From a virus (taxonomy: Duplodnaviria > Caudoviricetes), in IMG/VR virus record IMGVR_UViG_3300031576_000178, positions 1 through 38,090 of that record: a stretch of DNA of 38,090 nt, one strand, 5' to 3'. The position numbers were made by a program, and so were the translations under genes. The notes under the pieces are model-generated. The model did not search any database, was not told the origin of the DNA, and saw only the letters and a program-made list of their open reading frames with translations. Shown here piece by piece: positions 120-18,880 of the stretch. How positions within the stretch are numbered: the stretch's first letter is position 1; the number at the start of each line of letters is the position of its first letter.

Positions 120-150
120 TTGGTTGGGGGTTCGAGTCCCTCACGGCCTA
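120..150 (+). other. tRNA 3' half (T-arm, acceptor strand, discriminator A): probable attP core, tRNA-Lys-like
   Basis: GGGGG-TTCGAGT-CCCTC T-arm (126-142) then ACGGCCT-A; no matching 5' half found; about 300 nt downstream of the integrase across the junction. Lys identity is from remembered similarity only. Confidence 0.8.
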
Positions 151-153
151 CTA

Positions 154-185
154 GCTCGGCAGGCGGGGAAACTTGCCCGCCGAGC
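154..185 (+). terminator. GC-rich hairpin directly after the tRNA 3' end (possible replacement terminator for the reconstituted tRNA)
   Basis: GCTCGGC-AGGCGGG-GAAA-CTTGCCC-GCCGAGC; no U tract. Confidence 0.5.
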
Positions 186-2978: not shown

Positions 2979-3090
2979 TTGACTCTCTCCCCCAACCGCT
3001 ATAGACTCTCATACGACCTGACAGAGTCGATGACACCGGGGTCTGCACCTGGCGCCTGCGCGCCACGTGCGGGCCCCGGCGTTTTATTTT
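2979..3090 (+). promoter_or_regulatory. Late promoter 1 with conserved 29-nt leader and long intrinsic terminator (attenuator)
   Basis: TTGACT-17-TAGACT; leader 3015-3043; stem CCGGGGTCTGCAC/GTGCGGGCCCCGG followed by CGTTTTATTTT; paralogous to 18678-18800. Confidence 0.8.
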
Positions 3091-3105
3091 CAAAGAGGCT
3101 CCTGC

Positions 3106-3549
3106 ATGACCCCCAACCCCATCACCGAACTTCTTAAGCGCCGTGAGACCATCGCCTTTATCGTGGCCACCCTAATGTCGGCCATCGCCGCAACCCAACT
3201 ACCGCAGCGCGCCGGCCTACCCCTCCCTGAAGCAGCGCTTGGTCAGCTCACCACCAGCGTCTGGCTGATCTTCGTGGGCTTCTTCGTCGAGGGCAAGTTC
3301 CGGGGCGCGGGCTACACCGGCGACCTTAAGACCGCCTTCACCTCCAGCCGCTTCCGACTCTTCTACGTGCAGGGCTTTGTACTGGTGGTCAACGCCTTTC
3401 TGCCGGAAGGCTTCAAGCTCCCCGAGGAAGCGCTGACCGGCCTGGGCCAGTTTGTGGTGGCCGGGGTGTTGGGCCTGACCACCGGCGACGTCGTCCAGAC
3501 TCTCCGCCTCACGCCTTCCATCAGCGGTGGCGGCCAGGCGCGTAGTTGA
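3106..3549 (+). CDS. Multi-pass membrane protein, holin-like, internally duplicated
   Basis: About 4 hydrophobic segments; LPEAALGQL and LPEEALTGL repeats; first gene of the late operon. Confidence 0.6.
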   Translation: MTPNPITELLKRRETIAFIVATLMSAIAATQLPQRAGLPLPEAALGQLTTSVWLIFVGFFVEGKFRGAGYTGDLKTAFTSSRFRLFYVQGFVLVVNAFLPEGFKLPEEALTGLGQFVVAGVLGLTTGDVVQTLRLTPSISGGGQARS

Positions 3550-3582
3550 CGCGCCCGAGCCGCGCCACCCGGCGCATGATGC

Positions 3583-3999
3583 GTGTTCACCGAGTCGGGC
3601 GCCATCGCCATTCTCCTGGCGGTCGTGGCGCTCTGGCTAGGTTTGAAATTAGCGAGCGTCCATCGCGAATACAACGCCAAGTTCGCTGAGCTGCGCAAGC
3701 AGCGCGAGATCGACGTCCGACAACACAGTATTGATGAGCAGGTGATCGCCCAGCTCGAAGACAAGAACGTCCAACTGCGCCTGGAAAAAGTGGCGTGTAT
3801 CGCCGAGAACAAGCAGTTGGAGAAACGGATCGTTGAACTGACCGAGGGCTCTGACCAAGTGAAGCACATGTGGGAAGAAATCCGGGCGCGGCGCGGCGAG
3901 CGACCGATCAGCATCGTCAACCAGAACACCGGCGGCGACTCGACCGTGGGCGGCGACGTGGCCGGACGCGACACGCGCCGCGAGACCGAGACCCCGTGA
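3583..3999 (+). CDS. Single-TM coiled-coil protein with C-terminal GGDVAGRD motif (lysis-cassette position)
   Basis: N-terminal TM, heptad-rich middle, tail ISIVNQNTGGDSTVGGDVAGRD. Confidence 0.7.
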   Translation: MFTESGAIAILLAVVALWLGLKLASVHREYNAKFAELRKQREIDVRQHSIDEQVIAQLEDKNVQLRLEKVACIAENKQLEKRIVELTEGSDQVKHMWEEIRARRGERPISIVNQNTGGDSTVGGDVAGRDTRRETETP

Positions 4000-4283
4000 T
4001 CACCAACGCCCAGGCCTTCCGCGCCCTCGACGTGGCGCTGCGCTGTGTGCAGATGCTAGCCGGCGACGTGCGCGCCCTGGAGGCGCTCACCTCGGACGAG
4101 ACGGTGACCGCCATCCTCGAGCGGCACGGCCTCGGCCCCAGCCAGATCGATCTCTTTCGCATGTGGGATCGGGTGCGCCAGGAGGCGGGCCAGGACACGC
4201 TGACCAAAACGATGCTGGTGTTGACTATGATGCGCGATGTCTTCCAGGGCCGCCCGGCGGACGAACCGGCGGTCTGGCCCTGA
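3996..4283 (+). CDS. Hypothetical protein
   Basis: GTG start overlapping the upstream stop (GTGA); GC3-rich codons. Confidence 0.65.
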   Translation: MITNAQAFRALDVALRCVQMLAGDVRALEALTSDETVTAILERHGLGPSQIDLFRMWDRVRQEAGQDTLTKTMLVLTMMRDVFQGRPADEPAVWP

Positions 4284-4286
4284 ACG

Positions 4287-4505
4287 ATGGATGACCCGGC
4301 CCTCACCCTGGCGCTGGCCACCCGCCTGGCGCGCTACCTCAACGTGGAGCAGACCATCAAACTGCTCGACCTGTTGGAGATGATCGAGACGACGGCCGGC
4401 GGTTATGGCGACGTCGCGATCGTGATGCAGGGCGGGCACGTGCGCTACCTGCGCCCGACGATGTCCGTGGACGTGACGCCGAAGCCGAAGCCCCGGCCCA
4501 CGTAA
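4287..4505 (+). CDS. Small DUF2292/YezD-like protein
   Basis: Helix followed by GYGDVAIVMQGGHVRYL, resembling the YG.V.I....G.V..I signature of DUF2292. Confidence 0.55.
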   Translation: MDDPALTLALATRLARYLNVEQTIKLLDLLEMIETTAGGYGDVAIVMQGGHVRYLRPTMSVDVTPKPKPRPT

Positions 4506-4605
4506 GCAGACGTTTGATTAGGGCCGATTTCAAAGGGGTATTCAAACGTGGTGAGGGCGCACACCGCCCTCATCCAGACCGGCTTTTTACGAGAGGCCGT
4601 GACCT

Positions 4606-4908
4606 ATGGCGAAGGATGGAACCCGACGCGGCGGCGCGCGCTCCGGCAGCGGCCGCAAGACCCGCGCGAGCACCCGGCTCAAGCAGCAGTTTCTAGCCCG
4701 GCAGCACAAGGCGGCGGAACAGGCCTTCGACCTGGTCGTGCGTACGATGCGCGGCCAGGCGAACGATTTAGGATTGAGAGTCGAGTGCGCCAAGCTGGTG
4801 ATGGATCGGGTGTATGGCAAACCCAAACAGGCCCTGCTGCTGGGATTGAGAGAGGAGACGCCAGGCGGAACATTGGAATGGACGGTCAAATTTTCCCGGC
4901 CCGATTAA
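4606..4908 (+). CDS. Probable terminase small subunit
   Basis: MAKDGTRRGGARSGSGRK N-terminus and MDRVYGKPKQ motif; directly upstream of TerL. Confidence 0.75.
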   Translation: MAKDGTRRGGARSGSGRKTRASTRLKQQFLARQHKAAEQAFDLVVRTMRGQANDLGLRVECAKLVMDRVYGKPKQALLLGLREETPGGTLEWTVKFSRPD

Positions 4909-4911
4909 GCG

Positions 4912-6354
4912 ATGCCCGACATTACCGTGCCCTGGTGGCCCCAGCCGCGCCAGGCCGAACTGATCCGGGCGGCCGGCCTGCTCGACACGCTGCGCACCGG
5001 CGCGCCGCCGCAGAAACCCCAGGCGCGCGTGATCGGGTACGGCGGTGCCGCGGGCGGGGGCAAGACCGACGCCGACCTGGGCCTCGCGTTCACCTGGGCC
5101 GCGGCCTACCCGGGCAGTCAGATTGCGTTCTTCCGCCGGACTTTCACCGAACTCGAAGGCCCGGACGGCGCCATTCAACGGGCGCACGAGCTGCTGGCCC
5201 CGCTCCGGCGCGCCGGCGCAGCGAAGTGGAACGGCGACAACCACCGCTGGACCTTCGCCTGGGGCAGCGTGCTTCAGTTTTGCCACTGCCAGACCGCCAA
5301 GGATGTATTCAACTATCAATCGGCGCGCTTCGACCTGCTCCTCATCGACGAGGCGACGCATTTTCCCTGGCCGATGGTGGACTACCTGATGACCCGCAAC
5401 GGCCCGACGGTGGACAGCGTGTTGCAACCGCTGGCCGTCTTCACCACCAACCCCGGCAATGTGGGGCACGGCTGGTACAAGACTCAATTTGTGGATGTGC
5501 GCCCGTGGGGTCAGCCGCACGACGTGCTCCTGCCCAGCGGCGAACCCGAGCGGCACATGTTCATCCTGGCCAAGCTGGACGACAACCCGATCCTCGACCG
5601 GCGCGCCAGCGGCGAGTATCGCCAGACCCTGAAGAAGCGTGATCCCGTGACCAAACAAGCGTTGCTCGACGCCGACTGGAATATCTTCATGGGCCAGGTC
5701 TTCAAAGAGTGGCGGGAGGATCGGCACATCATCAAGCCGATGGAACTGCCCGCGCACCATCCACGCTTCATGGGGATCGATTGGGGCTATGCCAGCCCGT
5801 TCGCCGCTTACTGGCGCGCCAAGGACCCGGACACCGGGCGGGTGTATGTGTATCGCGAGGCCTACGATGTGGGCTTGACCGATCGCCGGCAGGCTCGCCT
5901 GATCCGCGATATGACCCCGCCGCTGGAAAAGATAAGGCACCGTTACGCCGACCCGTCCATGTGGACCAAGCGCAACCAGGAGGATATGACCTTCTCGACC
6001 GCGGACGAGTACGCGGCGGAAGGGGTCTATCTCACCCGCGCGGACAACGACCGGCTGACGCGGGTGCGCAAGTTGCACACCCTGCTGGCCGATCTGCCGG
6101 ATGGCCGGCCCGGGCTGCTGGTCTTCCAGACCTGTGTGGAGTTGATCCGCACCCTGCCGGCGTTGGTGGCCGACCCGATCCGCCCGGAGGATGTGGACAC
6201 CGACGGCGAGGATCACGCCTACGACGCGCTGACCTATTCGCTGACTCCGGATCGGCCCGTGCCGCCGGGCAAAGACAAGGTGTTGGTCGTACACGACCCG
6301 CTCCTCGGGCGAGCACGCCGATCCGGGGATGGCCTCGGGAGCCGCGACCTATGA
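4912..6354 (+). CDS. terL: Terminase large subunit
   Basis: PQPRQ Q-motif, Walker A GGAAGGGKT, Walker B LLLIDEA, TTNPG, nuclease motifs GIDWG and DHAYDALTY. Confidence 0.96.
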   Translation: MPDITVPWWPQPRQAELIRAAGLLDTLRTGAPPQKPQARVIGYGGAAGGGKTDADLGLAFTWAAAYPGSQIAFFRRTFTELEGPDGAIQRAHELLAPLRRAGAAKWNGDNHRWTFAWGSVLQFCHCQTAKDVFNYQSARFDLLLIDEATHFPWPMVDYLMTRNGPTVDSVLQPLAVFTTNPGNVGHGWYKTQFVDVRPWGQPHDVLLPSGEPERHMFILAKLDDNPILDRRASGEYRQTLKKRDPVTKQALLDADWNIFMGQVFKEWREDRHIIKPMELPAHHPRFMGIDWGYASPFAAYWRAKDPDTGRVYVYREAYDVGLTDRRQARLIRDMTPPLEKIRHRYADPSMWTKRNQEDMTFSTADEYAAEGVYLTRADNDRLTRVRKLHTLLADLPDGRPGLLVFQTCVELIRTLPALVADPIRPEDVDTDGEDHAYDALTYSLTPDRPVPPGKDKVLVVHDPLLGRARRSGDGLGSRDL

Positions 6355-8078
6355 AAGACCTGACCGACATTCAACAGCGGGCGTCCACGCTGGTGGGCCT
6401 GTACTCGGGACGCGATGGGCTGTACGAAGAACTGCGCAAGATGTTCCACATGGAATGGAGCGACGAGCCCAAGGGCGACTGGATCAAAGCCACGATGGCG
6501 CCGTCGGCGCACAACGCCCTGCTGGGCGCGGTGCGGCTGATGATCTCGACTGCGCCGCAGTTCAACGTCGCCTATGACGAGGCCGACGCCGGCACCCGCG
6601 AGACCGCCAGCCAGATCGAGCAGGCGGCGCTGGCGATGTGGACGGGCAGCGGGCGGGCCACGCAGCGCCCGCCGCACTACGACCAGGTCTTCAGCGCGCT
6701 GATGTACGCCGAGATCTGCGCGGCCGTGACGCGCACGGCTGACCTGGTGAAGTATGCCGAAGGCTCCGGCGACAAAGCCCAGCGGGTGCGCATGAAACAC
6801 CTGGCGGTCGAGACGCCCTATCTGTTCACGACCTTCAACCCCGCCACCTGCTATGGGGATTTCGACCTGTACGGCCTGCGCGGGATGCTGCGCCGGACCA
6901 CGACCACCTGGGGCGAGGTGCAGGCGACCTGGGGAGCGTTGGTCCAGGACGACGGCCAACGCCGACCGGAAGAGAAGGTGGTGCTCAACGATTGGTACGA
7001 CTGGGCCGAGCGCGCCGTGTGGATGGATGGCGCTGACCCCATCTTCCATGCGGAGCACGGCCTGGCCTTCATGCCGGTGGTGGATCAACTGGTCGAGGGC
7101 ACCACACTCTTCGATCTGCCGGAGCGCCAGCGTCTCCCGTTCTTCTATGCGTTGCACAAGAGCGGGCTGTGGAAGCGCGAGAACCTGAGCCTGACCACGA
7201 TCTACTCACTCATCCACGCGCTGGGCTCCAACCCGTTGCTGGTGTACGAGACGGACGACCGGGATAACGCCCTGCTGATCGACCGCACCCTGCCCGGCGG
7301 GGTTCTTAAGATCAACAAGGGCGAAAGTCTGCGCTCGCTGGCCGAAGTCGTCGTCAACCCGGAGCTGTATCGCGGTCTGGAGATGGCGCAACGGCTCAAC
7401 GAAGAGAGCACCATCCCCAAGATGGCGCTGGGCGCGCCGCCTCAGCAGGCGCTGGCGTTCTCGGCGATCAGCCTGCTGGTGCAGAGCGGGCGCCTGCCCC
7501 TCATCACCACCAAACAACTGGGTGCGGAGGCCATCGCCAACCAGGTGCGCGCGGCCCTGGCCTGGTACAAGAGCGACCCACCCACCGGCATGAAGTTCTA
7601 CAACGCGCGCGGCGGCGCGATCCCGCTGCGGCCGGCCGACCTGCCCGAGCGCCTGGCCCTGCGCGTGAGCCTGGAGCCCGACCTGCCGACCGACAAGCTC
7701 CAGATGGCCAACACCGGCAACGCCCTGGCGGCCAGCGGCCTGGCCAGCACGCGCTGGGTGCGCGAGAACATCCTCAACATCGGCCAGTCGGAGGCGATGG
7801 ACAAGGAAATCTGGATGGAGAAACGGCTGCGCTTTGAGATCGAACGCCTGTTCCAGCAGTTGAACGCGCAAGACCAGCTGAAGCTCCAGCAGATGGCGGC
7901 GCAGATGCAGGCGGTGCAACAGGAGCGGAGTCAGGCGATGGCGCAAACCGTGGCCGAGAACGAGCCGGCCCAAGACCGGGCCAACGGCGGGCCGCCCCCC
8001 TCCCCCGTCCCGCCCGGCGGCGTCGGCGAGGGACAGCCGCTGAACGGGCCGCTGCCCCCTCGCTGGCAGGCGGGCTGA
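6351..8078 (+). CDS. Portal protein, 575 aa
   Basis: Follows TerL with ATGA overlap; portal-like size; Q/M-rich coiled-coil C-terminus. Confidence 0.8.
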   Translation: MKDLTDIQQRASTLVGLYSGRDGLYEELRKMFHMEWSDEPKGDWIKATMAPSAHNALLGAVRLMISTAPQFNVAYDEADAGTRETASQIEQAALAMWTGSGRATQRPPHYDQVFSALMYAEICAAVTRTADLVKYAEGSGDKAQRVRMKHLAVETPYLFTTFNPATCYGDFDLYGLRGMLRRTTTTWGEVQATWGALVQDDGQRRPEEKVVLNDWYDWAERAVWMDGADPIFHAEHGLAFMPVVDQLVEGTTLFDLPERQRLPFFYALHKSGLWKRENLSLTTIYSLIHALGSNPLLVYETDDRDNALLIDRTLPGGVLKINKGESLRSLAEVVVNPELYRGLEMAQRLNEESTIPKMALGAPPQQALAFSAISLLVQSGRLPLITTKQLGAEAIANQVRAALAWYKSDPPTGMKFYNARGGAIPLRPADLPERLALRVSLEPDLPTDKLQMANTGNALAASGLASTRWVRENILNIGQSEAMDKEIWMEKRLRFEIERLFQQLNAQDQLKLQQMAAQMQAVQQERSQAMAQTVAENEPAQDRANGGPPPSPVPPGGVGEGQPLNGPLPPRWQAG

Positions 8079-8672: not shown

Positions 8673-8860
8673 CGGGCGCGGAGCCGCTGTCACCGTATGC
8701 CCTTCAGCCACTCCAACGGCGAGGCGGCTTTCTCGGCTACCCCCCGCGACCGAGTGGGGGATACCCCCCGATCGGCCTCCCGGCCTTCCAGTCCGGGGGC
8801 TTTGATCCATTTCGCCTCATCCATCGCCAAGTGACAGGAGGTTACTATGCCGCCTATTAG
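8357..8860 (+). CDS. Low-complexity Pro/Gly/Arg-rich hypothetical protein
   Basis: AGGAG RBS, overlapping start; atypical codon usage; largely built of DNA repeats. Confidence 0.5.
   Translation: MYPNLFRRGGTGQQRNVNTRATALPAFRQPSTNPRLFPAVSPRPLVARAPSQPSAPRGQAFGSRGQDAAAIPRYEGAGVAPLSGALSEPGFGVRGQSYAYADRGGTGAEPLSPYALQPLQRRGGFLGYPPRPSGGYPPIGLPAFQSGGFDPFRLIHRQVTGGYYAAY
8739..8761 (+). repeat. REP-like palindrome, internally deleted copy
   Basis: ACCCCCCGC-GACCG-AGTGGGGGA. Confidence 0.65.
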
Positions 8861-9632
8861 GCGCCCGCCGCGGCAAGGCTCGCCGCCCACCCCCACCCCC
8901 ACACGCCAGGGCCAGCAGAACCAGGGGCAGACGCCGCCGACCGTCACCCGATTCCCGGGGCGGGGCGGGGTGGGCGGCGGGACGGTCGCCATCCCGCCCT
9001 ACCCCCCGCGACCGGGGCGCGGAGCGCCCCCGGTCAGTGGGGGCTACCCCCCGCCCCCCGCGCAGTTGCCGGCCGGCTTCTCACTCTCGGGGGTGAACGC
9101 GCCCAGGGTGAGTCCGTGGGCGGGCTTTCCGAAATTCATTGAAAACGCGGCCGCATTTTTCTCCAATCTCGGCAAAGGAGTTCCCTACGATCCCAGCTAT
9201 GGGATCGGTGGGCCACCTGTCCCCGGTGTGCCAGGCTATGGCAAAATCTTGCCGGGTGTTCAATTGCCAGGATTACAGAGCGCCAGGCCCATTAAGGGGA
9301 CTTATCTTTTGGAACATCCACCCGATTACCTGCGGGACCCAAATACGCTCCGGTTCTCACCGCTGACGGCCGCCCAACTGAGAGCGCGCGAACGCAACCG
9401 CGCCAACCTGGTGCGGCAGAGCGGGACGTGGGGAACGGGGGGGGAATTGCTCGAAGTGGGGCCGCTCTACGAGGCGGCCTTCACGCCCGAGGCGCCGGAC
9501 ATCCCGGCCTACACCGGGGGCGGGGGCTATGACGACTACGGCGGCGGGGGCGGCGGGGGCGGGGGCGGGTATGACTACCCCGACCGCGAGCTGCCGCCCT
9601 GGATGTACGGCCTGCTGAACTGGCGCTTCTAG
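8847..9632 (+). CDS. Pro/Gly-rich disordered protein, possible internal virion protein
   Basis: AGGAGG RBS; poly-Gly/Tyr tail; ends 5 nt before the giant gene. Confidence 0.65.
   Translation: MPPIRRPPRQGSPPTPTPTRQGQQNQGQTPPTVTRFPGRGGVGGGTVAIPPYPPRPGRGAPPVSGGYPPPPAQLPAGFSLSGVNAPRVSPWAGFPKFIENAAAFFSNLGKGVPYDPSYGIGGPPVPGVPGYGKILPGVQLPGLQSARPIKGTYLLEHPPDYLRDPNTLRFSPLTAAQLRARERNRANLVRQSGTWGTGGELLEVGPLYEAAFTPEAPDIPAYTGGGGYDDYGGGGGGGGGGYDYPDRELPPWMYGLLNWRF
9001..9044 (+). repeat. REP-like palindrome, copy A
   Basis: ACCCCCCGC-GACCGGGGCGCGGAGCGCCCCCGGTC-AGTGGGGGC. Confidence 0.85.
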
Positions 9633-9637
9633 AGTCC

Positions 9638-12600
9638 ATGCCCAAACGCCTCCCCCAACCCCCCCGCCCGGGACCGGTGGCCCCGCCGCTGGCGGCCCCC
9701 ACAGAGCGGGGCGCGGAGCGCCCCCGGTCGCAGGGGGGGGCCGGAAGCGCCGCCCGCCCTCCGCGCTCATCGGCGCCCATCCGGCCGGCGCAAATCCGGC
9801 CCCGCATTCCGCTCACCCCGCCCACCTCGCAGGGCGACTTCGGGCCGCCGCAAGCCCTGACCCCCGAACAGCGCGCGCAGTTCTATCAACCGGGCGGCCC
9901 CGGCCAGCAGTATCAGGGCGTGGACCAACCCCGCCCGCAATCCTACGCCCTGCGCGAGGGCGACGTGGCCCCGGTGCGCCTGGTCGTCCGGCGCGGGCAG
10001 GGGCAGACGGTCATCGTCGAGGCCGGCACGAAGCTGACGCAAGACGCCTTGCGGGCAGCCCAAGCGGGCAACGAGTGGTCGAGCTACTTCGGCGGGGTCG
10101 CGCCGCCCTCCCCCTTGCGGCCGCGGAAGCCCCGGCTGGGGGCGCTGGGCTATCAAGCGCCCGTGCCGGGCCAGCAATTTGGCCTGCCCGAAGGCGACCC
10201 CAACAAAACCATGCGCGGCAAGTTCGCGCAGTTTCTGGGCTCGCCCCTGGGCGCCGCCAGCCAGATCGGGATAGGGGCGCTCCCCGGCGTGATGGTGGGC
10301 GCGTCGCTGGGCGGGCCGGTCGGGGCGCTGGCGGGCGGCCTGCTCACGGGCGGGGTCACGGCCGGCGGCCTGGCGTATCAGCGCTATCTGCAATCCGCCT
10401 ATGGCCTGGCGGAGGCGCAGAAGAAGTTTGACGAATCCGTCTTCGGTCAGTTTGGAAAAGTATTGGACGCGCCCCGGCAGTGGCTGGAGCAGGGGATCGG
10501 CGTCGGGACGCAGGCGGTGGAAGACCCGACCGAGGTCTTCCAGAATTTAGGCGCGGCCTGGGAGGCGGCCCGGCTGACGTATGTGTCGGCGCCGATTGAT
10601 CCGCGCGTCCTGGACCCGGCGCGCTGGTGGGCGGGCGACCTGAAGAACCCCATCGACTTCAGCACCAATCGGACCTTCGTCGATTACGATTTGCCCGAGA
10701 CGACGGGCGGGGTGGCGGCGTTGGTGGAAGCACGTAAGCGCATCGCCGCGGGCGAAAGCGCCGCCCAGGTCTTCGCCGAAATCCAGGGGCGCTACGGCGC
10801 GCCCGGCCAGATCCGCGAACTGCTGTCGGGGTTCCTGCTCGACCCGCTCAACTTCGCCGAGGGGGCGCAGGGCCTGGCCCTGCGCGGCCTGGCCCGGGCC
10901 GCGCACGCGGACGACCTGGCGCTGGCCACCCGGCTGGCGCGCGGGACGGGCCCACTCTCGCGCTTCACCCAGGGCGGGCTGATCGACACCGCCCAGGCCT
11001 ATCGCAATATCAAGCTCACGAAGCTCATGCGCGAGGGCTTCACCGACGCGCGCCACCTGTCCTGGTTCCAGCGCGCGCTGATCGGCCCGGAGATGGTCGG
11101 CATCCTGCGGGGCGAGTATCACCCGCCCCAACCGTGGGAGCTGTGGCGGCTGACCCCGGAGAGCCAGGCGCGCGAGCAGGTGGTGCAGGCCAACAATTAC
11201 GTGCAGGCCCACGTGCTCAGCCGACTGCCGAACGACGAGACCATCGCCGCCCGGGCGGCGGAGCTCTTGCAGGGGATGAAGACGGCCCGGCTGGACGAGA
11301 ACGTGGAGCGGCTCGACCCGGCGGCGCGGGCCATGCTGAGCCTCGAGGGCCAGGTGGTGCAGCGCTCGCTGCGCCACGGCGGCGACGTGGAGTTGAATCT
11401 ATTGACGGGTTGGCAGGACATGACCAGCGCGCGCGCGCTGCTGGCCGACGTGGCCGCCAAACTCGGCGACACCCCGACCGGCATTATCAAGCGGGCGACC
11501 GACGGCGAGGCTGGCAAGCTGCTGCGACTCTATGGCCAGGCCGGTGGACAGGTGGCCAAGGGCGTGACGGCCAAGAGCTTCGAACAGTCCATGCGCGCCT
11601 TCGCCGAGGGCGCGCCGTACAACCCCGAGATGTTCAAAGCGGCGCTGCTGTCGGGGCTGCTCGAACAATCGGGCAAGTGGGCGGCGGATTTCTTTAAGAT
11701 CAAGGCGCCCGGGTTCCTGGAACAGCTGGCCGGGGTGGTCAAGGCCGCGCAGAGCGCGGTCCTGCTGGGCCTCAACCCGGGCTACCTGGTCAACAATTTC
11801 CTGGGCAACCAGGTCACGATGCTGGCGCGCGGCGCGTGGGGGTTTCAAAACCTAAACACGCTGCGCGAGGAGATGGGGCGCTTCGGCCTGGCGCCGGCGC
11901 GCATGATCGAAGGCGTGTCGCCCGCCGACGAGGCGGCCACGCTCAGCGCGCAACAGCGGTACACCACCCTCGTCCAGGCGCATGAAGCCGGGCTGCGTCC
12001 CATTCAAGAGGCCCGCACCCCGGCCTCCCCGTTGGAGAACCTGCGCCAACACGCCAGCCGCCTGGCCCAGATGACGCCCTTTCTGAAGGCCTCGCAGGCC
12101 GTCGAGCGGCACGCCAGCGCCAACGCCTTCGGCGCCGGCTTTCGGCAGATGTGGGAGCGGGCCTGGCGGCGCGGCGTGGGTTTCGAGCGCCTGCCCGCGG
12201 AGCTGGAGCAAGCCCTGGCCGGGGTCGATCCGCGCCTGCCCGATTTCATCTACGCGGCGGCCGAGGCCGGCTACACCCCGCAAGACATTAGCGCCCGGGT
12301 GCTGGAGCGCGCGCCGCGCCCGGTGGTGCAGGAGTTCTACACCCAGGTGGCGCGCACCCTGGGCCTCGACGACGAGCGGCTGCGCTCACTGCTGGAGTCG
12401 GGCGGCCTGGGTCCGGCGCTCAACGCGCGGCTGGCCCAACTCCCCGACAACGCCACCCGTCAGGACGTGCGCCAGGTCTTCCAGGAGGTGCGCGTGCAGG
12501 CCGAGCAGTTCATGGCCGAGCAAGAGGCCGCCTATGCCCAGGCCCAACTCGACTACGTCGCCCAGGCGGCGGGCGGAAACGAGCTGGGGCTGACCGATGC

Positions 12601-15600
12601 CGGCGCGCTCCTGGAGACCTTCGACCAACTCACCACCCGCCAGGCCGAGAGCTTCATCAGCCACAAGCGCCTGCTCGAAGAAGTGTGGGACGACTGGCTA
12701 GGCGGGCGCATCACGCGCGACGAGCAACTGGCGCGCATGAAGGACGCCGGCGACAAGCTCTACCGGCAGGGGCTGTTTGTGGAGCAGCAGGCCACCGCCG
12801 ACGGGCTGGCGGCCGGGATGAAGACGGCCGGCCTGCCCCTCGACCCGGGCTTCCCCGCCGCGCAGCGCACCATCCACGATCTGACCGGCGACTTCCACGC
12901 GCAGCGTGAGCAGGTCTACCGCGAGTTCTTCCGCCGCCCGAAGAATGAACGCACGCCGGAATTGTGGGCGGCCACCCAGCAGCAGGTCGACGACGCCTAC
13001 CGCAACTTCATCGGCCATCGCGGGCAGCTCCAAGAGTCGATGGACGCCTATCTGGCGGCCGCCTACGAGCGGCGCTTTCCCGCCAGCGGGGAGCGGGTGC
13101 GCGCCTGGCGCGACGGGGTCCGCACGCACGAGGCCGCGTACGAAGACGCGGTCCTGAAACAGTTCACCGACGCGCGCGCGCTCCCTGACCCAGTCGCCCG
13201 GAATCAATTGTGGCGCGCCTTCGACGACCGCATGATCCAGCAGCGCCTGGCCTGGACGCGCGAGGCGATCGCCGCCCGGAAAGCGATCTGGGAGACGGTG
13301 CCCGGCCCGCAGGCCCTACAGAACGGGACCGCGATCGCGCAGGGAGCCGCGCCAGCGCCCATGTCCGCAGACATTTCGACTCTCCCCACGCCCCAGGCCG
13401 CTGACGAATTACAACGCCAGGCGACCGCCGGCGCGCAACTGGCCGAGGCCCAATCCGACCAGGCCCTGACGGCCGAGTACTTCGCGCTCGACCGGGACTA
13501 CACCCGACTGGGCGGGGAGGCGCCGCCGGAACTGGTGGCCCGCTTCCGCGATGTGCAGCAACGGTTCAATGATCGTTTCCCTGAAGCCCCACCCACGCGC
13601 GCGACTCCGCCCGAAGCCCAGAGCGCCGTCACCTGGAACCTGAGCCGCAAGCGGGTCGAGATCGGAGGCGAGCCGACCCCGGAGCAGCAGGACCTGCTGA
13701 AGAGCCTGGGCTGGCGGCAGGAGAAGGCCACCGGGGCGTGGTATAAGCGCGGCGACTTCGCCAGCGAGGGGCGGCGCGTGATGGGTGAGGCAGCCCTGCG
13801 GCCGTTTGAGCAGAAGCGCCTGGAGCGTCTGCGGGCCGGGCGGCTGCCCCTCGCCCCGGCCGCGCCGCCGCCCGAGGCCCTGACCCCGGCGGGCGCGATC
13901 CGCCTCCCCCGCCGTGAGCTGCCGCCCGCACTCTCGCAGGCGCTGGAGATGCAGGCGCGTGAGATGCTGCGCCAGGTGGCGGAGGGCGAGGCCGGGCAGC
14001 GGGTGTTCGTGCGGGACGAGGCGGGGTATCTCACCGGCGACGTGCTGGCCGCCCCTTCCACCTATCCCGATTGGTATGGCGCCCTGAACGCGCGGCGCGA
14101 GACCATCGTGAACGCGCTCCAGAAGATCGTGAAGGACGCCGGCGCCGACGTGGACCGGGCGGGCCAGGCGATCCTGCGCCGGCTGAAACAAGCCATCCTG
14201 GACGAACTGGCCAAGACCGATCCGCTGACGGGCCGCCCGCCGGAGCCGGAGGTGTTGCGCTTCCTGGGCCGTAGTTCAGCCGAGATCGACGCGGCCCGCG
14301 CCGCCTGGCGGGTGGCTCAGGCCGAGCCCTTCGTCCAGCCCTTTCTCGACTCACTCACCGAACAGGGCGGCCTCAGCCGGGCGCAGTTCGTCGAACGCCT
14401 GGGGCGCGAGTTTGAGAACGTCACCCCGGAGCAGGCGCGGGCCGTGGTGGCCATCACCGACGCCCGCGCGCAGGCCTGGGCGCGCCAGACCGGGCGCGAT
14501 CCGGAGCAGTGGTACGCCGCGCATCTGGCCGATGTGCGCACCGCCGGTGAGGCGGGCGATCTCTTCCAGCTCGCGACGCCCGAGCAGGTGCAGGCGCGCT
14601 TGGCCCGGGCGCGCACACAGTTGGGCGAGAGCGGCATTGCGCAGTTTGGAGGGATTCCGCTCAGCTTCATCGCCGATCCGCACACACGAGCGCTGGTCGA
14701 GGAATACCGGAGCGCCGCGCTCGACCAGCGCTTCCTCGAGGCCTACGGACGAGCGTTCAACCTGGGCGACCAGGGGCAGATCGCGCGTCTCCTGGCCGGG
14801 GAGGCCGCCGAGTTCCAGGCTCGCCCGGATGGCGCGTTCGATATCGTGCTCGGGGATCGCGCGGTGGCGAACGCGCCCAGCCTCGACGAGGCGCGCCGGA
14901 TGGTGCAGGAGCTGAACGTCAAGAACTATACGCCGCGCCTCTATCAGACCGGACCCGAGGCCTACCGCGTCTTCCGCGAGAGCGGGCCGGACGGCGTGCG
15001 CTATTACCTGCACGACGCCCAAACCAACCGGCGCATCCAGGGACCCTTTGAGTCGTCCGAGCAGGCCCGGGCCCGCATTGAGGAGCTGGTCGCCTTCGCC
15101 GAGCGCGGGTTCTACCAGGGGGAGGGGATGAAGAAAGGGAGCGTCGAGTTCCTGGAAGACGGCCGCGCCATCGTGCGCGCCTTTGAGACGGCGGACGTCT
15201 CGACTCTCGTGCATGAACTGGGCCACGTCTTCCGGCGCGACCTGCCGGCGGATGACCTGGCCCGAGCGGAGATTCATTACGGGGTAGAAAATGGTGAGTG
15301 GCAGGTCGGGCCCGAGGAGCAGTTTGCCCGCGATTTTGAGCGGTATCTGGCCACCGCCGACGCCCCAACGCCCCAACTGCGCGGAGTCTTCGAGCGTCTG
15401 CGCGCCTGGCTAACCGAAATCTATCGCTCCGTCCGGGACTTCCTGACCCGACCCAGCGACGAGACGACCGCTATCTTTGATCGGCTCTTGCGCGTGGACG
15501 ACGCGACCGAGGGCGCCGGCAACTTTGCGTTGACCCCGCGCACCGAGGGCCGGGTGCTGTATCAGGCGAACGATGGCAGCCTGGTGGTGCGATCCGGTGA

Positions 15601-18600
15601 CGAGGTGCAACGCCTGCCCCCGGCCAGCGCTGAGCCGCCGCTCCTGCCGCCGGGCGTGCTGGCTGACGATGGCGCGATGCCCACGCCGGTGGCCGCCGCG
15701 CAGTCCGAGACGTATTGGCGCCAGTTACGGCCGGCCCTGGCCGAGCTGCAACGCGCTATCGAAGCGGATGTCCAAACCGGAAGAGTCAAAGGCCAGGCCC
15801 TGGACCCCGACCAGCGCCAGGCGGTGACCCATTACCTGCAACGGGTGGGCGACCAGATGGGGGAGGCCAAGTTGCTGGCCCTGAAGTGGGGCGAGTACAA
15901 ACGCGACGCGGCGCTCCTCAATTACAGCCGCCGCTATATGCTCGACACCTATTTGGGGATGGTGGCGCCCTACGAATTCTTCGCGACTCACTCGATGATG
16001 AAGTGGGCGTTGCACTCCCTCCAAACGCCGGCGCTGCTGGCGCATTACTATCGGATCAAGCGCTTCCTGGAGACGAACGTGCAGAAGCCCGGCTTCCCCT
16101 CGCGCCTGATGGGACGGGTGAAAATCCCGCTCCCCTGGCTGCCGGAGTGGATGGGCGGCGGGGTGTGGGTGGACCCGCTCAAGCTGGGCCTGCCCCTTGA
16201 AACCTTCGGCGCGCCGTGGGAGCAATACGCCCAGTCTCAGACCCGGCTTGAGAGTCGGGTGCAGCGAGAACTGGAGAAGCAGCTCGAGGCCGGGCAGATC
16301 ACCCAGGCCGACTATGACCAGGCCGTGGCCAGCTACCAGCCCGGGATGCTGGAGCAGGCGACGGGGCAGGGCGGCAACGAACTCTGGAACCGCACCACCC
16401 AGAGCGTGATGGCCGCCGACCCCAGCCAGCGCTTCGACGGCGCGGATTTTGCCACGATGCTCTACTCGCCCAGCCTGCCGCTCAAATGGGCCTATGAAGT
16501 CCTGCGCGGCACGCCCGAACGGATCGGCCCGCTGCCGGTCACGCGCGATGTCAAGAACCTGACGGCGGCCCTGGGCCTGGGCGGGGCGGGCGGCCTGAAC
16601 CTGGAGGCGGGCGTGCGGCGCGCGCTCGCGTTGCCGGTCTTCGACCAGTGGGCGGACTACCGCATCGACCGCGAGCTGGCCAACATGGCCGCTGAAGGAT
16701 TGCTCACCGCTGAACAAGCCAAGGCCGCCATGATCGAACGCAGCGGCGCGGCCTTCGATGAAGCGCAGCGACGCGAGGCCCAGCAAGGCGGGGCCGACCC
16801 GAACGTGCAAGTGTTGGGCCGACTCTTCGGCGGCGCCGGGGTGTATCCGGAGGGCGAAGAGCGCCAGCGCCAATTGGCGCTCCTGAACCGTGCGGCCTGG
16901 CAGGCTCAGGACAATGGCGATGTGGACGCCCTGAACGAATTCATGGAGGCCTACCCCGAATACGAGGCGCGCCTGGCGCTGAAGAACGATCCGGACGAGC
17001 GCCTGCAAAACTTTCTCGTCGATCAGGTGTGGGCCGGCTACAACGCCCTGCCGACTCTCTATCGGCGCGCGGTGCAGGATCAGTTTGGGCCGGAGTTCCA
17101 GCAGGCGTTCCTGGAAAAAGAGACGCGCAGCTACCGCTCTATCCCGCCCGAAACCCTGGCGGCCTGGGCGCGCACGTTGGGGCGCTACGTGCCGGGCAAC
17201 CTGGAGGCCGAGCCGCTGCGGCTCGACCTGGCGCCGGAGCCGGTGGCGCGCGAGGCCGAAGAGTATTACGACCGGCGTGCGCGGGCCTTTGAGATGGAGC
17301 GGGTGCGCGCCCTGCAAACCGCCTACTTCCAAATCCCCGAGCACGCCCGGGCCACGGCCACGCCGATGCCGGCGGACGTCGAGGCCTATTACACCGCGCG
17401 GGATCGACTCTTCCCTGACATTGTCGAGCTGCTGGACGCCTACGGCAACCTGCCGAAGAACACCAAGCCGGCGGAGCGTGACCGGCTCTTCCCCGGGATT
17501 GGGCAGAAACTGGATGCCTACTTCGCACTGCCGGCGCGCTCGCGCGAACGCAAAGCCTTCCGCGAGACGAACCCGGACGTGGCGGCCTATTGGGAATGGG
17601 AGAAACAATTCGACGCCGAGCACCCGGAGGCGGCGTTGCGCAAACAGTTCCGCGAGCGCTTCCCCGTCATCGAGCAGTATTTCACCTGGCAGGAGGCCTG
17701 GCGGGCCGGGCATCCGGACGTGGGGAGGTACCTGGACGAGACCCACGTCAGCGCGCGCACAGCCTTCCTGCAAGCCAATGCGGAACTGAATGACTATTGG
17801 GACTTCCGCCGCGCGTGGATGGAGAGCCACCCGGTCACGGCCAGCTATCTGACTGAGCAAACGCCCGACGGCGTCGGCGAGAACCGCCAGTATGAGGCCA
17901 CCGCGGATCGGCGCGGGGTCGAGATTTACGCCAGCCCGGAGATGCACTGGCTGGTGAGCGCGCACCTGTTTGCGGGCGCGGCGTTGCCGGCGCGCGTGCG
18001 CGGCGAACTGGAGCGGCAATGGGAGGCGCAGGGGAGGCCGGCGGGCGGCTTCGACCGCTGGCTGTTGAACGTGATGGCCTTCGGCGGTGAGCTGGGACCA
18101 GCCGGGTATTTGAACATGGGGCAGGGCGGCTATCAATATCCAGGGACGCCCGGCCCGGCGCCCTCCCCCGGCGGCGCGCCGAGCGCGTCGCGGGGGGTCC
18201 GTGGGGGCCACCCCCGTGCGTCCGGGCCGCCGGCGGCGATCCCGGCGCCCGATCCCTACGCCACGCGCCCGGTGTCCAGTGTGGGCGGGATCGGTCAGTG
18301 GCGAGAGATGGCGGCGCAATATGGCCAGCAGCATGGCGTCCCGCCCGAATATATCCTGGCGCTGATCCTGGCGGAAAGCGGTGGGCGCGCCGATGCCGTC
18401 GGCGACGGCGGCCACAGCGTGGGGTTGTTCCAACTGCACGATCGCGGCGTGGGCACTGGCTACACGGTGGAGCAGCGCCAAGACCCGCGCCTGCAATTCG
18501 AGCTGATGATGCCGCGCATCGCGCGGGCGTATCAGCAGGGCCTGGCGCGCGGGTTGTCGGGGGCCCCCCTGGCCGTCTATGTGGGCCGGGAAGCGGAGCG

Positions 18601-18664
18601 GCCGGCGGCCGGCGCCGAGCGGCGCTACGGCGTGACCTATCAGCAGATCGTCGGCCTCCCGTAG
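9638..18664 (+). CDS. Giant (3008 aa) polyvalent/internal virion protein with zincin-like metallopeptidase and C-terminal lytic transglycosylase
   Basis: Gly-zipper hydrophobic segment near N-terminus; STLVHELGHVF...EEQFARDFERYL; ILAESGG...SVGLFQL (SLT). Confidence 0.88.
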   Translation: MPKRLPQPPRPGPVAPPLAAPTERGAERPRSQGGAGSAARPPRSSAPIRPAQIRPRIPLTPPTSQGDFGPPQALTPEQRAQFYQPGGPGQQYQGVDQPRPQSYALREGDVAPVRLVVRRGQGQTVIVEAGTKLTQDALRAAQAGNEWSSYFGGVAPPSPLRPRKPRLGALGYQAPVPGQQFGLPEGDPNKTMRGKFAQFLGSPLGAASQIGIGALPGVMVGASLGGPVGALAGGLLTGGVTAGGLAYQRYLQSAYGLAEAQKKFDESVFGQFGKVLDAPRQWLEQGIGVGTQAVEDPTEVFQNLGAAWEAARLTYVSAPIDPRVLDPARWWAGDLKNPIDFSTNRTFVDYDLPETTGGVAALVEARKRIAAGESAAQVFAEIQGRYGAPGQIRELLSGFLLDPLNFAEGAQGLALRGLARAAHADDLALATRLARGTGPLSRFTQGGLIDTAQAYRNIKLTKLMREGFTDARHLSWFQRALIGPEMVGILRGEYHPPQPWELWRLTPESQAREQVVQANNYVQAHVLSRLPNDETIAARAAELLQGMKTARLDENVERLDPAARAMLSLEGQVVQRSLRHGGDVELNLLTGWQDMTSARALLADVAAKLGDTPTGIIKRATDGEAGKLLRLYGQAGGQVAKGVTAKSFEQSMRAFAEGAPYNPEMFKAALLSGLLEQSGKWAADFFKIKAPGFLEQLAGVVKAAQSAVLLGLNPGYLVNNFLGNQVTMLARGAWGFQNLNTLREEMGRFGLAPARMIEGVSPADEAATLSAQQRYTTLVQAHEAGLRPIQEARTPASPLENLRQHASRLAQMTPFLKASQAVERHASANAFGAGFRQMWERAWRRGVGFERLPAELEQALAGVDPRLPDFIYAAAEAGYTPQDISARVLERAPRPVVQEFYTQVARTLGLDDERLRSLLESGGLGPALNARLAQLPDNATRQDVRQVFQEVRVQAEQFMAEQEAAYAQAQLDYVAQAAGGNELGLTDAGALLETFDQLTTRQAESFISHKRLLEEVWDDWLGGRITRDEQLARMKDAGDKLYRQGLFVEQQATADGLAAGMKTAGLPLDPGFPAAQRTIHDLTGDFHAQREQVYREFFRRPKNERTPELWAATQQQVDDAYRNFIGHRGQLQESMDAYLAAAYERRFPASGERVRAWRDGVRTHEAAYEDAVLKQFTDARALPDPVARNQLWRAFDDRMIQQRLAWTREAIAARKAIWETVPGPQALQNGTAIAQGAAPAPMSADISTLPTPQAADELQRQATAGAQLAEAQSDQALTAEYFALDRDYTRLGGEAPPELVARFRDVQQRFNDRFPEAPPTRATPPEAQSAVTWNLSRKRVEIGGEPTPEQQDLLKSLGWRQEKATGAWYKRGDFASEGRRVMGEAALRPFEQKRLERLRAGRLPLAPAAPPPEALTPAGAIRLPRRELPPALSQALEMQAREMLRQVAEGEAGQRVFVRDEAGYLTGDVLAAPSTYPDWYGALNARRETIVNALQKIVKDAGADVDRAGQAILRRLKQAILDELAKTDPLTGRPPEPEVLRFLGRSSAEIDAARAAWRVAQAEPFVQPFLDSLTEQGGLSRAQFVERLGREFENVTPEQARAVVAITDARAQAWARQTGRDPEQWYAAHLADVRTAGEAGDLFQLATPEQVQARLARARTQLGESGIAQFGGIPLSFIADPHTRALVEEYRSAALDQRFLEAYGRAFNLGDQGQIARLLAGEAAEFQARPDGAFDIVLGDRAVANAPSLDEARRMVQELNVKNYTPRLYQTGPEAYRVFRESGPDGVRYYLHDAQTNRRIQGPFESSEQARARIEELVAFAERGFYQGEGMKKGSVEFLEDGRAIVRAFETADVSTLVHELGHVFRRDLPADDLARAEIHYGVENGEWQVGPEEQFARDFERYLATADAPTPQLRGVFERLRAWLTEIYRSVRDFLTRPSDETTAIFDRLLRVDDATEGAGNFALTPRTEGRVLYQANDGSLVVRSGDEVQRLPPASAEPPLLPPGVLADDGAMPTPVAAAQSETYWRQLRPALAELQRAIEADVQTGRVKGQALDPDQRQAVTHYLQRVGDQMGEAKLLALKWGEYKRDAALLNYSRRYMLDTYLGMVAPYEFFATHSMMKWALHSLQTPALLAHYYRIKRFLETNVQKPGFPSRLMGRVKIPLPWLPEWMGGGVWVDPLKLGLPLETFGAPWEQYAQSQTRLESRVQRELEKQLEAGQITQADYDQAVASYQPGMLEQATGQGGNELWNRTTQSVMAADPSQRFDGADFATMLYSPSLPLKWAYEVLRGTPERIGPLPVTRDVKNLTAALGLGGAGGLNLEAGVRRALALPVFDQWADYRIDRELANMAAEGLLTAEQAKAAMIERSGAAFDEAQRREAQQGGADPNVQVLGRLFGGAGVYPEGEERQRQLALLNRAAWQAQDNGDVDALNEFMEAYPEYEARLALKNDPDERLQNFLVDQVWAGYNALPTLYRRAVQDQFGPEFQQAFLEKETRSYRSIPPETLAAWARTLGRYVPGNLEAEPLRLDLAPEPVAREAEEYYDRRARAFEMERVRALQTAYFQIPEHARATATPMPADVEAYYTARDRLFPDIVELLDAYGNLPKNTKPAERDRLFPGIGQKLDAYFALPARSRERKAFRETNPDVAAYWEWEKQFDAEHPEAALRKQFRERFPVIEQYFTWQEAWRAGHPDVGRYLDETHVSARTAFLQANAELNDYWDFRRAWMESHPVTASYLTEQTPDGVGENRQYEATADRRGVEIYASPEMHWLVSAHLFAGAALPARVRGELERQWEAQGRPAGGFDRWLLNVMAFGGELGPAGYLNMGQGGYQYPGTPGPAPSPGGAPSASRGVRGGHPRASGPPAAIPAPDPYATRPVSSVGGIGQWREMAAQYGQQHGVPPEYILALILAESGGRADAVGDGGHSVGLFQLHDRGVGTGYTVEQRQDPRLQFELMMPRIARAYQQGLARGLSGAPLAVYVGREAERPAAGAERRYGVTYQQIVGLP
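9695..9740 (-). repeat. REP-like palindrome, copy C
   Basis: Minus strand CCCCCTGC-GACCGGGGGCGCTCCGCGCCCCGCTC-TGTGGGGGC. Confidence 0.8.
18165..18198 (-). repeat. REP-like palindrome, degenerate copy in the linker before the SLT domain
   Basis: Minus strand ACCCCCCGC-GACGCGC-TCG-GCGCGCC-GCCGGGGG; an extra CGTGGGGGC arm follows on the plus strand. Confidence 0.55.
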
Positions 18665-18677
18665 GGCCGGTTCCCGC

Positions 18678-18800
18678 TTGACTCACACGGGGCCGGGGCC
18701 TATCATACACACAGACCCGACAGAGTTGATGAGACCGGGGTCATCCCCACCGACGGACGCGCCCGGAGCGTCCCGTCCCGGGGGTGGCCCCGGTTTTTTT
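18678..18800 (+). promoter_or_regulatory. Late promoter 2 with conserved 29-nt leader and long intrinsic terminator (attenuator)
   Basis: TTGACT-17-TATCAT; leader 18714-18742; stem CCGGGGTCATCCCC/GGGGGTGGCCCCGG followed by T7. Confidence 0.82.
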
Positions 18801-18826
18801 CCGGCTTGAGTCCCTGCGAGCCGGTG

Positions 18827-18870
18827 GCCCCCACTGACTGGTGCGCTCCGCGCCCCGGTCCGCGGGGGGT
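18827..18870 (-). repeat. REP-like palindrome, copy D, abutting the scaffold RBS
   Basis: Minus strand ACCCCCCGCG-GACCGGGGCGCGGAGCGCACCAGTC-AGTGGGGGC. Confidence 0.8.
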
Positions 18871-18880
18871 GGAGGTACCT

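What the first reader, a model, noticed from the sequence alone, without database searches (positions are those of the whole stretch)
2979..18800. Twin late promoters share a 29-nt leader that can compete with an intrinsic terminator: candidate new antitermination/riboswitch element
Seen: the holin/terminase operon (2979-3090) and the scaffold/capsid operon (18678-18800) both start with TTGACT-17 nt-(-10). The leader begins at the 8th nt after the -10 in both: GACCTGACAGAGTCGATGACACCGGGGTC (3015-3043) vs GACCCGACAGAGTTGATGAGACCGGGGTC (18714-18742), 26/29 identical, while the spacers and upper hairpins are unrelated. The last 8 nt (CCGGGGTC) are the 5' base of a long terminator with a U tract that ends before the first gene. 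Two of the three differences preserve a 4-bp stem with an AGA loop (U-G/G-C vs C-G/G-U). The 5' GACC can pair with GGTC of the terminator arm, giving a mutually exclusive fold. Inference: late genes are off by default and switched on by a ligand or protein acting on this RNA, or on the DNA as with lambda qut. I do not recognise it as nut, qut, put or a known riboswitch.
Basis: partly seen in the sequence, partly recalled or inferred. Interest (0 to 1): 0.85.

Follow-up and report, generated by a model that had tools for sequence, protein, structure and literature searches.

The report
Phage late-gene RNA antiterminator hairpin
This phage and its relatives place the same small, structurally conserved RNA hairpin across the base of a predicted transcription stop signal in front of both particle-building operons, and a 72-residue phage protein of unknown function likely binds the hairpin to let transcription run on, which would be an undescribed late-gene switch.

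Summary
In detail: both late operons of this 38-kb temperate phage carry a sigma70-like promoter, a 29-nt leader (26/29 identical) and an overlapping predicted terminator. Rfam has no match.

Related phages supplied 10 further copies. In one copy, hairpin and terminator arm change together. The promoter distance varies from 11 to 173 nt, which favours RNA over a qut-like DNA site. The terminator wins by 7.6-24.2 kcal/mol, so the default is predicted OFF, as with LicT/RAT.

No CAT, ANTAR or Q domain was found. The best candidate factor is ORF 4287-4505: DUF2292-like (weak hits only), a predicted homodimer, present in 8 of 8 records with the first-operon copy.

Caveats: nothing is shown experimentally; co-occurrence is confounded by kinship; the candidate gene lies behind the terminator it would open; in both window copies another hairpin can still form at the U tract.

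Verdict: a real new RNA motif, most likely a new variant of protein-dependent antitermination.

The parts
2979..3007 (+). P1, sigma70-like promoter (TTGACT-17-TAGACT)
   Evidence: same type at the same place in G001, G004, G005, L100, L102
3015..3043 (+). Leader hairpin copy 1 (predicted antiterminator): basal helix 3015-3019 with 3039-3043, two bulged A's, inner stem, GAUGA loop; carries the one C-C mismatch of the family
3032..3090 (+). Predicted intrinsic terminator 1; 11 nt of the leader hairpin lie in its stem; U tract 3082-3090
3106..3549 (+). First gene of operon 1, hydrophobic, holin-like by position (inferred)
   Evidence: no Pfam or PHROG hit; translation
3583..3999 (+). Rz-like spanin (weak)
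   Evidence: phrog_1152, E 3e-4
4287..4505 (+). 72-aa candidate antiterminator protein, DUF2292-like, predicted alpha-alpha-beta-beta fold and homodimer
4912..6354 (+). Terminase large subunit (operon 1)
   Evidence: phrog_979, E 2e-39
18678..18706 (+). P2, sigma70-like promoter (TTGACT-17-TATCAT)
18714..18742 (+). Leader hairpin copy 2 (predicted antiterminator)
18731..18800 (+). Predicted intrinsic terminator 2; 12 nt of the leader hairpin lie in its stem
18778..18793 (+). Leader-independent 6-bp G-C hairpin next to the U tract, only in this copy (a caveat to the model)
18881..19573 (+). First gene of operon 2, scaffold-like by position (inferred)
   Evidence: no family hit; conserved before the capsid gene in relatives
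19586..20641 (+). Major capsid protein
   Evidence: phrog_212, E 1e-31

Best explanation
The 29-nt leader is a conserved RNA hairpin whose 3' strand is also the base of a predicted intrinsic terminator, so both late operons are likely off by default and likely switched on when a phage protein, most plausibly the 72-aa DUF2292-like product of 4287-4505, binds and holds the hairpin.

Shown by sequence comparison: the twin (in one phage triple) arrangement, the overlap, the covarying fold and the variable distance from the promoter.

Predicted: the promoters are active; the leader hairpin folds first during transcription and is then displaced by the far more stable terminator; the protein is a homodimer joined through its beta strands.

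Inferred: the dimer recognises the bulged A's and the GNYGA loop. Because its gene lies inside operon 1, behind the terminator, leak-through would feed a positive loop that flips both operons on once protein passes a threshold, for instance after genome replication.

Odds: RNA switch opened by a protein about 0.75; the whole statement with this protein about 0.55.
For: Fold: inner stem 98% paired in 10 distinct rows (49 of 50 cells), 2 of 5 pairs with compensatory changes, 0/500 shuffles reach the pairing or the covariation score, slid controls 26-46%. The basal helix forms 4 or 5 of 5 pairs in 12 of 12 copies, with an A-U/G-C swap. Three-way change: in G001 copy 3 the inner stem's 5' strand, its 3' strand and the terminator's 3' arm all change together. 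Switch: 6-15 nt of the hairpin lie inside the terminator stem in 12 of 12 copies; the terminator state is 7.6-24.2 kcal/mol more stable; basal pairs have probability 0.86-1.0 in 11 of 12 short transcripts (0.43 in one) and 0.0 at full length. RNA rather than DNA: -10 end to motif core is 11-15 nt in 7 copies, 86-173 nt in 4, and no TTGAC promoter lies within 260 nt in 1. Transcriptional level: G001 copy 3 precedes three tRNA genes. Protein: of the small non-structural ORFs, only this one and the excisionase-like HTH are shared between the window and nearly all motif carriers, and the HTH also occurs in motif-less G003. It is found in 8 of 8 records holding the operon-1 copy; 7 of 7 IMG/VR loci found with the protein also hold the motif; no match in G002, G003, G006, G010. 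Weak DUF2292 hits in 11 of 27 remote homologs and a below-bar Atlas lead. Model pLDDT 89. Homodimer score 0.56 against best control 0.00, runs agree in at least 89% of contacts, pLDDT at least 80; this mark was reached by 20 of 30 true homodimers and 1 of 23 monomers. The architecture matches the RAT description in PMC5393181 (29-33 nt, 6-10 nt overlap, terminator favoured).
Against: No experiment and no transcript data. The alignment is small and made of kin (10 distinct rows; perhaps 3-4 independent compensatory events), and the shuffle control ignores relatedness. The structure was derived from these same sequences. In window copy 1 the C-G pair under the loop is a C-C mismatch, and the family fold is not the minimum-energy fold in 7 of 12 copies. 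With the leader held, window copy 2 can still form a 6-bp G-C hairpin at the U tract (P 0.98 at equilibrium, though the upper stem hides its 5' arm while the RNA is being made), and copy 1 can form an irregular hairpin ending at its U tract; the 10 other copies leave the U tract free. Protein-motif co-occurrence is confounded by kinship, and two record pairs are near duplicates. The candidate gene sits behind the terminator, so the trigger is unexplained. No member passes the DUF2292 cut-off, and nothing shows that the protein binds RNA. G002 and G003 have the same architecture with other leaders but no detectable homolog of the protein.
Confidence: 0.55

Rival explanations
1. The hairpin is a loading site (nut- or put-like) that modifies RNA polymerase for processive read-through, with or without a phage protein; overlap with the first terminator is secondary.
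For: Both window copies can form a residual hairpin at the U tract even with the leader held, which a terminator-resistant polymerase would ignore. The operons are long (about 15 and 11 kb). The conserved GN..A pentaloop recalls lambda boxB (recalled, not tested).
Against: Strict overlap with the terminator base in 12 of 12 copies and three-way covariation fit direct competition. A fresh promoter plus hairpin is installed for each operon. Only four other U-tract hairpin candidates were found in 3100-30300, three of them inside genes.
Confidence: 0.15
2. Same RNA switch, but the ligand is another protein (a host factor, or a phage protein too divergent to be seen as shared).
For: The link to 4287-4505 rests on co-occurrence among kin. 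G002 and G003 have the architecture without a detectable homolog. The candidate gene lies behind the terminator.
Against: No other small non-structural ORF specific to motif carriers emerged from the all-against-all and profile comparison. A host factor would be expected to keep one motif across related phages, yet G002 and G003 use other leaders.
Confidence: 0.13
3. A small riboswitch: the hairpin binds a metabolite or ion and turns the late genes on.
For: Invariant unpaired purines (AGA, G..GA) and an ON-type expression platform.
Against: No Rfam match. Exact-pattern scans of IMG/VR found convincing copies only in this phage group. Sister phages replace the sequence while keeping the architecture, which fits a co-evolving protein better than a fixed ligand (inference). 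Bacterial genomes were not scanned for the motif.
Confidence: 0.08
4. The short terminated transcript is itself the product (a small RNA or protein sponge), and late expression is set by leak or by upstream read-through.
For: Promoter, structured leader and strong terminator are also the layout of a small RNA gene.
Against: In the finished transcript the conserved hairpin is destroyed (probability 0.0), and the upper hairpins vary freely in length (49-115 nt to the U tract).
Confidence: 0.05
5. A DNA element (qut- or ops-like) read on the template near the promoter.
For: In the window both copies lie at the same offset from the -10 box.
Against: The offset is 86-173 nt in four related copies, and there is no -10-like pause hexamer in the first 41 nt of either leader. 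Compensatory changes keep base pairs, not sequence. No Q domain. Only TTGAC-type promoters were looked for, so nearer degenerate promoters are not excluded.
Confidence: 0.04

Closest known systems
BglG/SacY/LicT (CAT) antiterminators with RAT hairpins (PMC5393181, first part of the Introduction read; PMC3369936, first part of two read)
   Same: About 29-nt irregular hairpin whose 3' end overlaps an intrinsic terminator; two conserved interruptions in the stem; terminator thermodynamically favoured; a small dimeric beta-sheet protein is the (here only predicted) binder.
   Different: Conserved apical loop (variable in RAT); no CAT domain in five phage records; candidate protein has an unrelated alpha-alpha-beta-beta fold and no sensor domain; controls phage late operons and tRNAs, not sugar operons.
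ANTAR (AmiR/NasR/EutV) dual-hairpin antitermination (PMC3369936; PMC12591593, passages)
   Same: Short hairpin overlapping the terminator's 5' arm; repeated in front of several genes; A..G hexaloops can be drawn in the window copies.
   Different: The ANTAR-like second stem has 0 of 3 pairs in 6 of 12 copies; no ANTAR domain.
Lambda Q with pR'-qut-tR' (one passage of PMC8632103; further details recalled), and Q21-like BrrG of BaGTA (bioRxiv 10.1101/2024.11.20.624540, abstract and section list)
   Same: Same regulatory job: sigma70-type late promoter, short leader, terminator, then lysis and packaging genes.
   Different: The conserved element is a transcribed, covarying hairpin at variable distance; no pause hexamer; no Q domain; two or three gates per genome.
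conAn and cATT of pLS20-type conjugation operons (PMC8191782, PMC13401043; abstracts and section lists)
   Same: RNA-based antitermination or attenuation at the head of a long mobile-element operon, with a protein encoded in the operon.
   Different: conAn is a large RNA acting processively, and cATT is a zipper attenuator in a 456-nt leader; here the element is 29 nt and repeated.

Membership tests
BglG/SacY RAT system | 29-33-nt hairpin sharing 6-10 nt with an intrinsic terminator | tested here: met
   27-29 nt; 6-15 nt inside the terminator stem in 12 of 12 copies, so often longer than in RAT
BglG/SacY RAT system | Stem with two conserved internal loops, apical loop variable | tested here: not met
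   two single-A bulges, but the apical loop is conserved (G..GA invariant in 12 of 12)
BglG/SacY RAT system | Cognate CAT-domain protein | tested here: not met
   PF03123 in 0 of 5 phage records, control rang in 5 of 14 genomes; the host genome is unknown and was not searched
ANTAR system | Two 3-bp stems with A1/G4 hexaloops | tested here: not met
   second stem 0 of 3 pairs in 6 of 12 copies, and its loop loses A1 in 2
ANTAR system | ANTAR-domain protein | tested here: not met
   PF03861 in 0 of 5 records; no control genome passed the cut-off, so sensitivity is uncertain; host not searched
Lambdoid Q/qut | Q protein | tested here: not met
   PF06530 in 0 of 5 records; no Q hit among 51 ORFs in PHROGs or 45 in Pfam
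Lambdoid Q/qut | Promoter-proximal sigma-dependent pause element at fixed distance | tested here: not met
   no TAnnnT in the first 41 nt; distance 11-173 nt
Known riboswitch or Rfam cis-regulatory family | Match to a covariance model | tested here: not met
   0 at gathering over the window; only sub-threshold matches, best E 0.14
Known riboswitch or Rfam cis-regulatory family | Ligand-dependent structural change | not testable with these tools
   needs in-line probing
nut/put processive antitermination | Read-through of downstream heterologous terminators | not testable with these tools
   needs a reporter or in vitro transcription
DUF2292 (PF10055), for ORF 4287-4505 | Pfam gathering score of 22 bits | tested here: not met
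   0 of 6 close members hit; 11 of 27 remote homologs hit weakly, best 20 bits; 0 of 5 records
DUF2292 (PF10055), for ORF 4287-4505 | Same fold (helix plus beta hairpin) | tested here: inconclusive
   Atlas TM 0.58-0.60 to a DUF2292 cluster, under the bar; feature score 0.81

The most novel reading that the evidence does not exclude
A Q-independent phage late-gene switch: a tiny DUF2292-like dimer binds a 29-nt bulged hairpin at each late promoter and, being encoded behind the first gate, forms a positive-feedback loop. This would give the first molecular function to the DUF2292/YezD-like small proteins, as a new family of RNA-binding antiterminators whose target hairpins diverge between phage lineages.
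Probability: 0.45. Interest if true: 0.82.

Novelty: new variant of a known kind. Interest (0 to 1): 0.66.

Why it matters
Late-gene control is understood mainly from Q-type antiterminators and promoter activators (established knowledge). A RAT-like RNA-protein gate on phage structural operons would be another solution, and it names a testable function for an unstudied small-protein family. A 29-nt RNA and a 72-aa protein are also a minimal, possibly orthogonal transcription ON switch, testable in a laboratory strain or with purified polymerase.

Tried and rejected
RNA structure and family:
- ANTAR-type double hexaloop, seen by eye in the window: not conserved.
- A K-turn/K-loop reading was considered by eye and dropped untested.
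- Rfam: nothing at gathering or credible E-value.

Searches for relatives:
- Pattern scan (26 stretches): none had the promoter-leader-terminator context.
- Pattern scan: 3 of 27 were true copies.
- G002-type leader scan: 4 of 13 stretches were the G002 copies; the other 9 lacked the terminator.
- Capsid protein as a single query found no viral relative. The genome-contig scan gave one distant locus, so no host genome or bacterial copy could be examined. The host is undetermined (searches gave no close named relative).

Candidate protein:
- No clear fold match in PDB, VIA (best Z 3.7, rmsd 7.1, 59 aligned) or BFVD; no NCBIfam or PHROG name; no INPHARED match for a remote homolog.
- Small ORFs next to leader copies in G003 and G002 looked similar by eye, but hhalign gave probability 0.1%, BLASTP between them E 0.19, the Atlas nothing and the single-sequence model was poor (pLDDT 61). 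The G002 copy has its own promoter 6 nt upstream. Left as an unproven lead.

Expression: no RNA holder listed.

Literature: ten searches listed no paper on this motif or on DUF2292/YezD as an antiterminator. The two DUF2292 papers and the yezD papers were seen only as listings, and one search was swamped by unrelated hits. No supplements were read; motif catalogues in supplements or subscription journals could hold it.
Full report
SETTING. The window is a virus record with 127-nt terminal repeats, 67% G+C. It encodes an integrase, a ParB-like protein, an excisionase-like HTH, terminase, major capsid and a 3008-aa protein with a weak transglycosylase hit, so it is a temperate tailed phage. The host was not determined.

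OBSERVATION. The two leaders match at 26 of 29 positions, start at the 8th nt after the -10 boxes of two TTGACT-17-(-10) promoters, and have no third copy above 19/29. Chance is about 0.009 over all window pairs before the shared offset is counted. Each runs into a long hairpin with a U tract (z -7.9 and -4.7) ahead of the first gene. Rfam gives nothing at gathering and only sub-threshold matches.

RELATIVES. A capsid alignment and motif scans led to related phage records. G001, G004 and G005 each carry the motif before both the holin-like and the scaffold-like gene; L100, L102, L104 and L111 carry the first copy, L044 and L045 the second. G001 has a third copy in front of three tRNA genes. 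Twelve copies from 7 records were aligned; the copies in L044, L104 and L111 were left out as duplicates. A covariance model built from them scored 15 places at 38.6 bits or more in 566,092 bases of 47 sources, all known copies or duplicates (they match by construction); the next best was 23.7 bits. So the sequence family is narrow in what could be searched. Bacterial genomes were not scanned for it.

STRUCTURE. Numbering the leader 1-29, the supported fold is a basal helix (1-5 with 25-29), a 0-2-nt 5' bulge, Y8-G24, bulged A9, G10-C23, bulged A11, a 3-bp stem (12-14 with 20-22) and a G-N-Y-G-A loop. The five inner pairs form in 49 of 50 cells, two pairs show compensatory changes (G-C to U-A, U-A to G-C), no shuffle of 500 reaches the pairing or covariation score, and slid controls give 26-46%. 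The basal helix keeps 4 or 5 of 5 pairs in all 12 copies, with an A-U/G-C swap. Limits: the rows are kin, the structure was derived from them, window copy 1 holds the single C-C mismatch, and the family fold is the energy minimum in only 5 of 12 copies.

SWITCH. In all 12 copies 6-15 nt of the hairpin lie in the terminator stem. The terminator state is 7.6-24.2 kcal/mol more stable. The basal pairs have probability 0.86-1.0 in 11 of 12 transcripts ending just after the leader and 0.0 at full length. In G001 copy 3, positions 12-13, their partners 21-22 and the terminator's 3' arm all change together, so both alternative pairings are kept. This is the signature expected of a switch. Against the simple model: with the leader held, window copy 2 can still form a 6-bp G-C hairpin (18778-18793) at the U tract (P 0.98 at equilibrium; its 5' arm is hidden by the upper stem until the RNA reaches about 18793), and copy 1 can refold into an irregular hairpin ending at its U tract. 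The ten other copies leave the U tract free.

RNA OR DNA. The distance from the -10 end to A9 is 11-15 nt in 7 copies and 86-173 nt in 4; 1 copy has no TTGAC promoter within 260 nt. Spacers are not shared, and neither window leader has a -10-like pause hexamer. With the covariation, this argues against a qut-like site. A copy gating tRNA genes argues for control of transcription rather than translation.

TRANS FACTOR. CAT, ANTAR and Q domains are absent from 5 of 5 records searched, and the ANTAR-like second stem fails in 6 of 12 copies. All-against-all and profile comparisons leave one small non-structural ORF shared by the window and all motif carriers but not found in motif-less G002 and G003: 4287-4505, the fourth gene of operon 1, just before the putative small terminase. 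It is in 8 of 8 records with the first copy, and the 7 IMG/VR loci found with its alignment are all motif carriers. These records are kin and two pairs are near duplicates, so this is suggestive only. The protein has invariant or near-invariant Gly39, Gly41 and Arg53 among close homologs and a confident two-helix plus beta-hairpin model (pLDDT 89), with no clear match among solved folds. A homodimer through strand 41-48 is predicted (0.56 against best control 0.00; at least 89% contact agreement; pLDDT at least 80; mark reached by 20 of 30 dimers and 1 of 23 monomers). Eleven of 27 remote homologs hit DUF2292 below the cut-off, and the Atlas gives the same lead under its bar; it is DUF2292-like, not a shown member. 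RNA binding is inferred, not shown.

WIDER CLASS. The more distant phages G002 and G003 keep the layout with other sequences: four copies of one leader-terminator in G002 and two of another in G003, the latter before the holin-like and scaffold-like genes. The G002 and G003 leaders fold by computation with a GGC(G) 5' end paired into the terminator base in 5 of 6 copies. A conserved layout with a replaced sequence fits a co-evolving RNA-protein pair better than a metabolite sensor (inference). No homolog of the candidate was detected there, and small ORFs beside their leaders could not be linked to it.

MECHANISM. Predicted: constitutive promoters make short transcripts that stop at the U tracts. 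Inferred: a dimer of the 72-aa protein captures the leader hairpin as it emerges, the terminator base cannot form, and polymerase enters the lysis/packaging and capsid/tail operons. Since the gene lies behind gate 1, leak-through would create positive feedback that flips after a rise in genome copy number; this trigger is speculation. Confidence 0.55 for the whole, about 0.75 for a protein-opened RNA switch.

COMPARISON AND NOVELTY. It works like CAT-RAT as described in PMC5393181 (first part of the Introduction read) and PMC3369936 (first of two parts read) but fails membership (conserved loop, no CAT). It does the job of lambda Q (one passage of PMC8632103) by other means. A 2025 review of RNA-binding antiterminators has 0 occurrences of 'phage' (PMC12591593, passages). 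conAn, cATT and BrrG were seen as abstracts and section lists only. Ten searches listed no description of this motif or of DUF2292 as an antiterminator; supplements and subscription papers were not seen. After I had reached this reading (note 73), a word look-up returned eight earlier scan notes proposing DUF2292-like protein plus hairpin switches in other genomes. These are unchecked AI notes and not evidence; they indicate that the class recurs in this scan, while this sequence had no look-alike there.

VERDICT. A real, new cis-acting RNA motif; most likely a new variant of protein-dependent antitermination on phage late genes. Interest 0.66.

Noticed in passing
window 8732-8775, 8994-9046, 9688-9740, 18820-18872, 29264-29315: A second repeat family: about 45-55-nt imperfect G+C-rich palindromes in both orientations. 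One lies between terminator 2 and the scaffold-like gene's ribosome-binding site; REP- or MITE-like by appearance.
   Followed up: partly
G001:C1 near 38692 (-); L084 18705-18933: Third copy of the motif gates three tRNA genes: two tRNA-Ser(GCT) and one with a four-base anticodon call.
   Followed up: partly
G002:C1 67661, 55275, 49693, 18410 (-); G003:C1 33607, 12387 (-): Different repeated leader-plus-terminator motifs with the same layout; the G002 type has an A-rich loop with a GGA. Found nowhere else in IMG/VR by exact pattern.
   Followed up: partly
G001, G004, G005, L045, between P2 and the leader: A shared hairpin of another kind is inserted just after the P2 promoter in relatives, moving the motif 86-173 nt downstream.
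   Followed up: no
window 9638-18664 (+): A 3008-aa protein with a weak C-terminal transglycosylase hit, 52% identical over about 900-1080 aa in relatives, placed before the capsid operon; possibly an internal or ejection protein.
   Followed up: no
window 100-155: tRNA 3'-half-like sequence near the integrase end, a possible attP; ARAGORN calls no full tRNA.
   Followed up: no
window 25406-25612: Three 69-nt tandem repeats in a tail-region ORF.
   Followed up: no
G004 and G005, operon 1: A 67-aa Lys/Arg-rich ORF between the candidate gene and the small terminase, not seen in the same stretch of the window or G001.
   Followed up: no
L049 about 8710-9140; L041 about 255-330: Strong terminators also precede the scaffold-like gene in these more distant relatives; L049 has a 400-nt structured-looking leader.
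   Followed up: no
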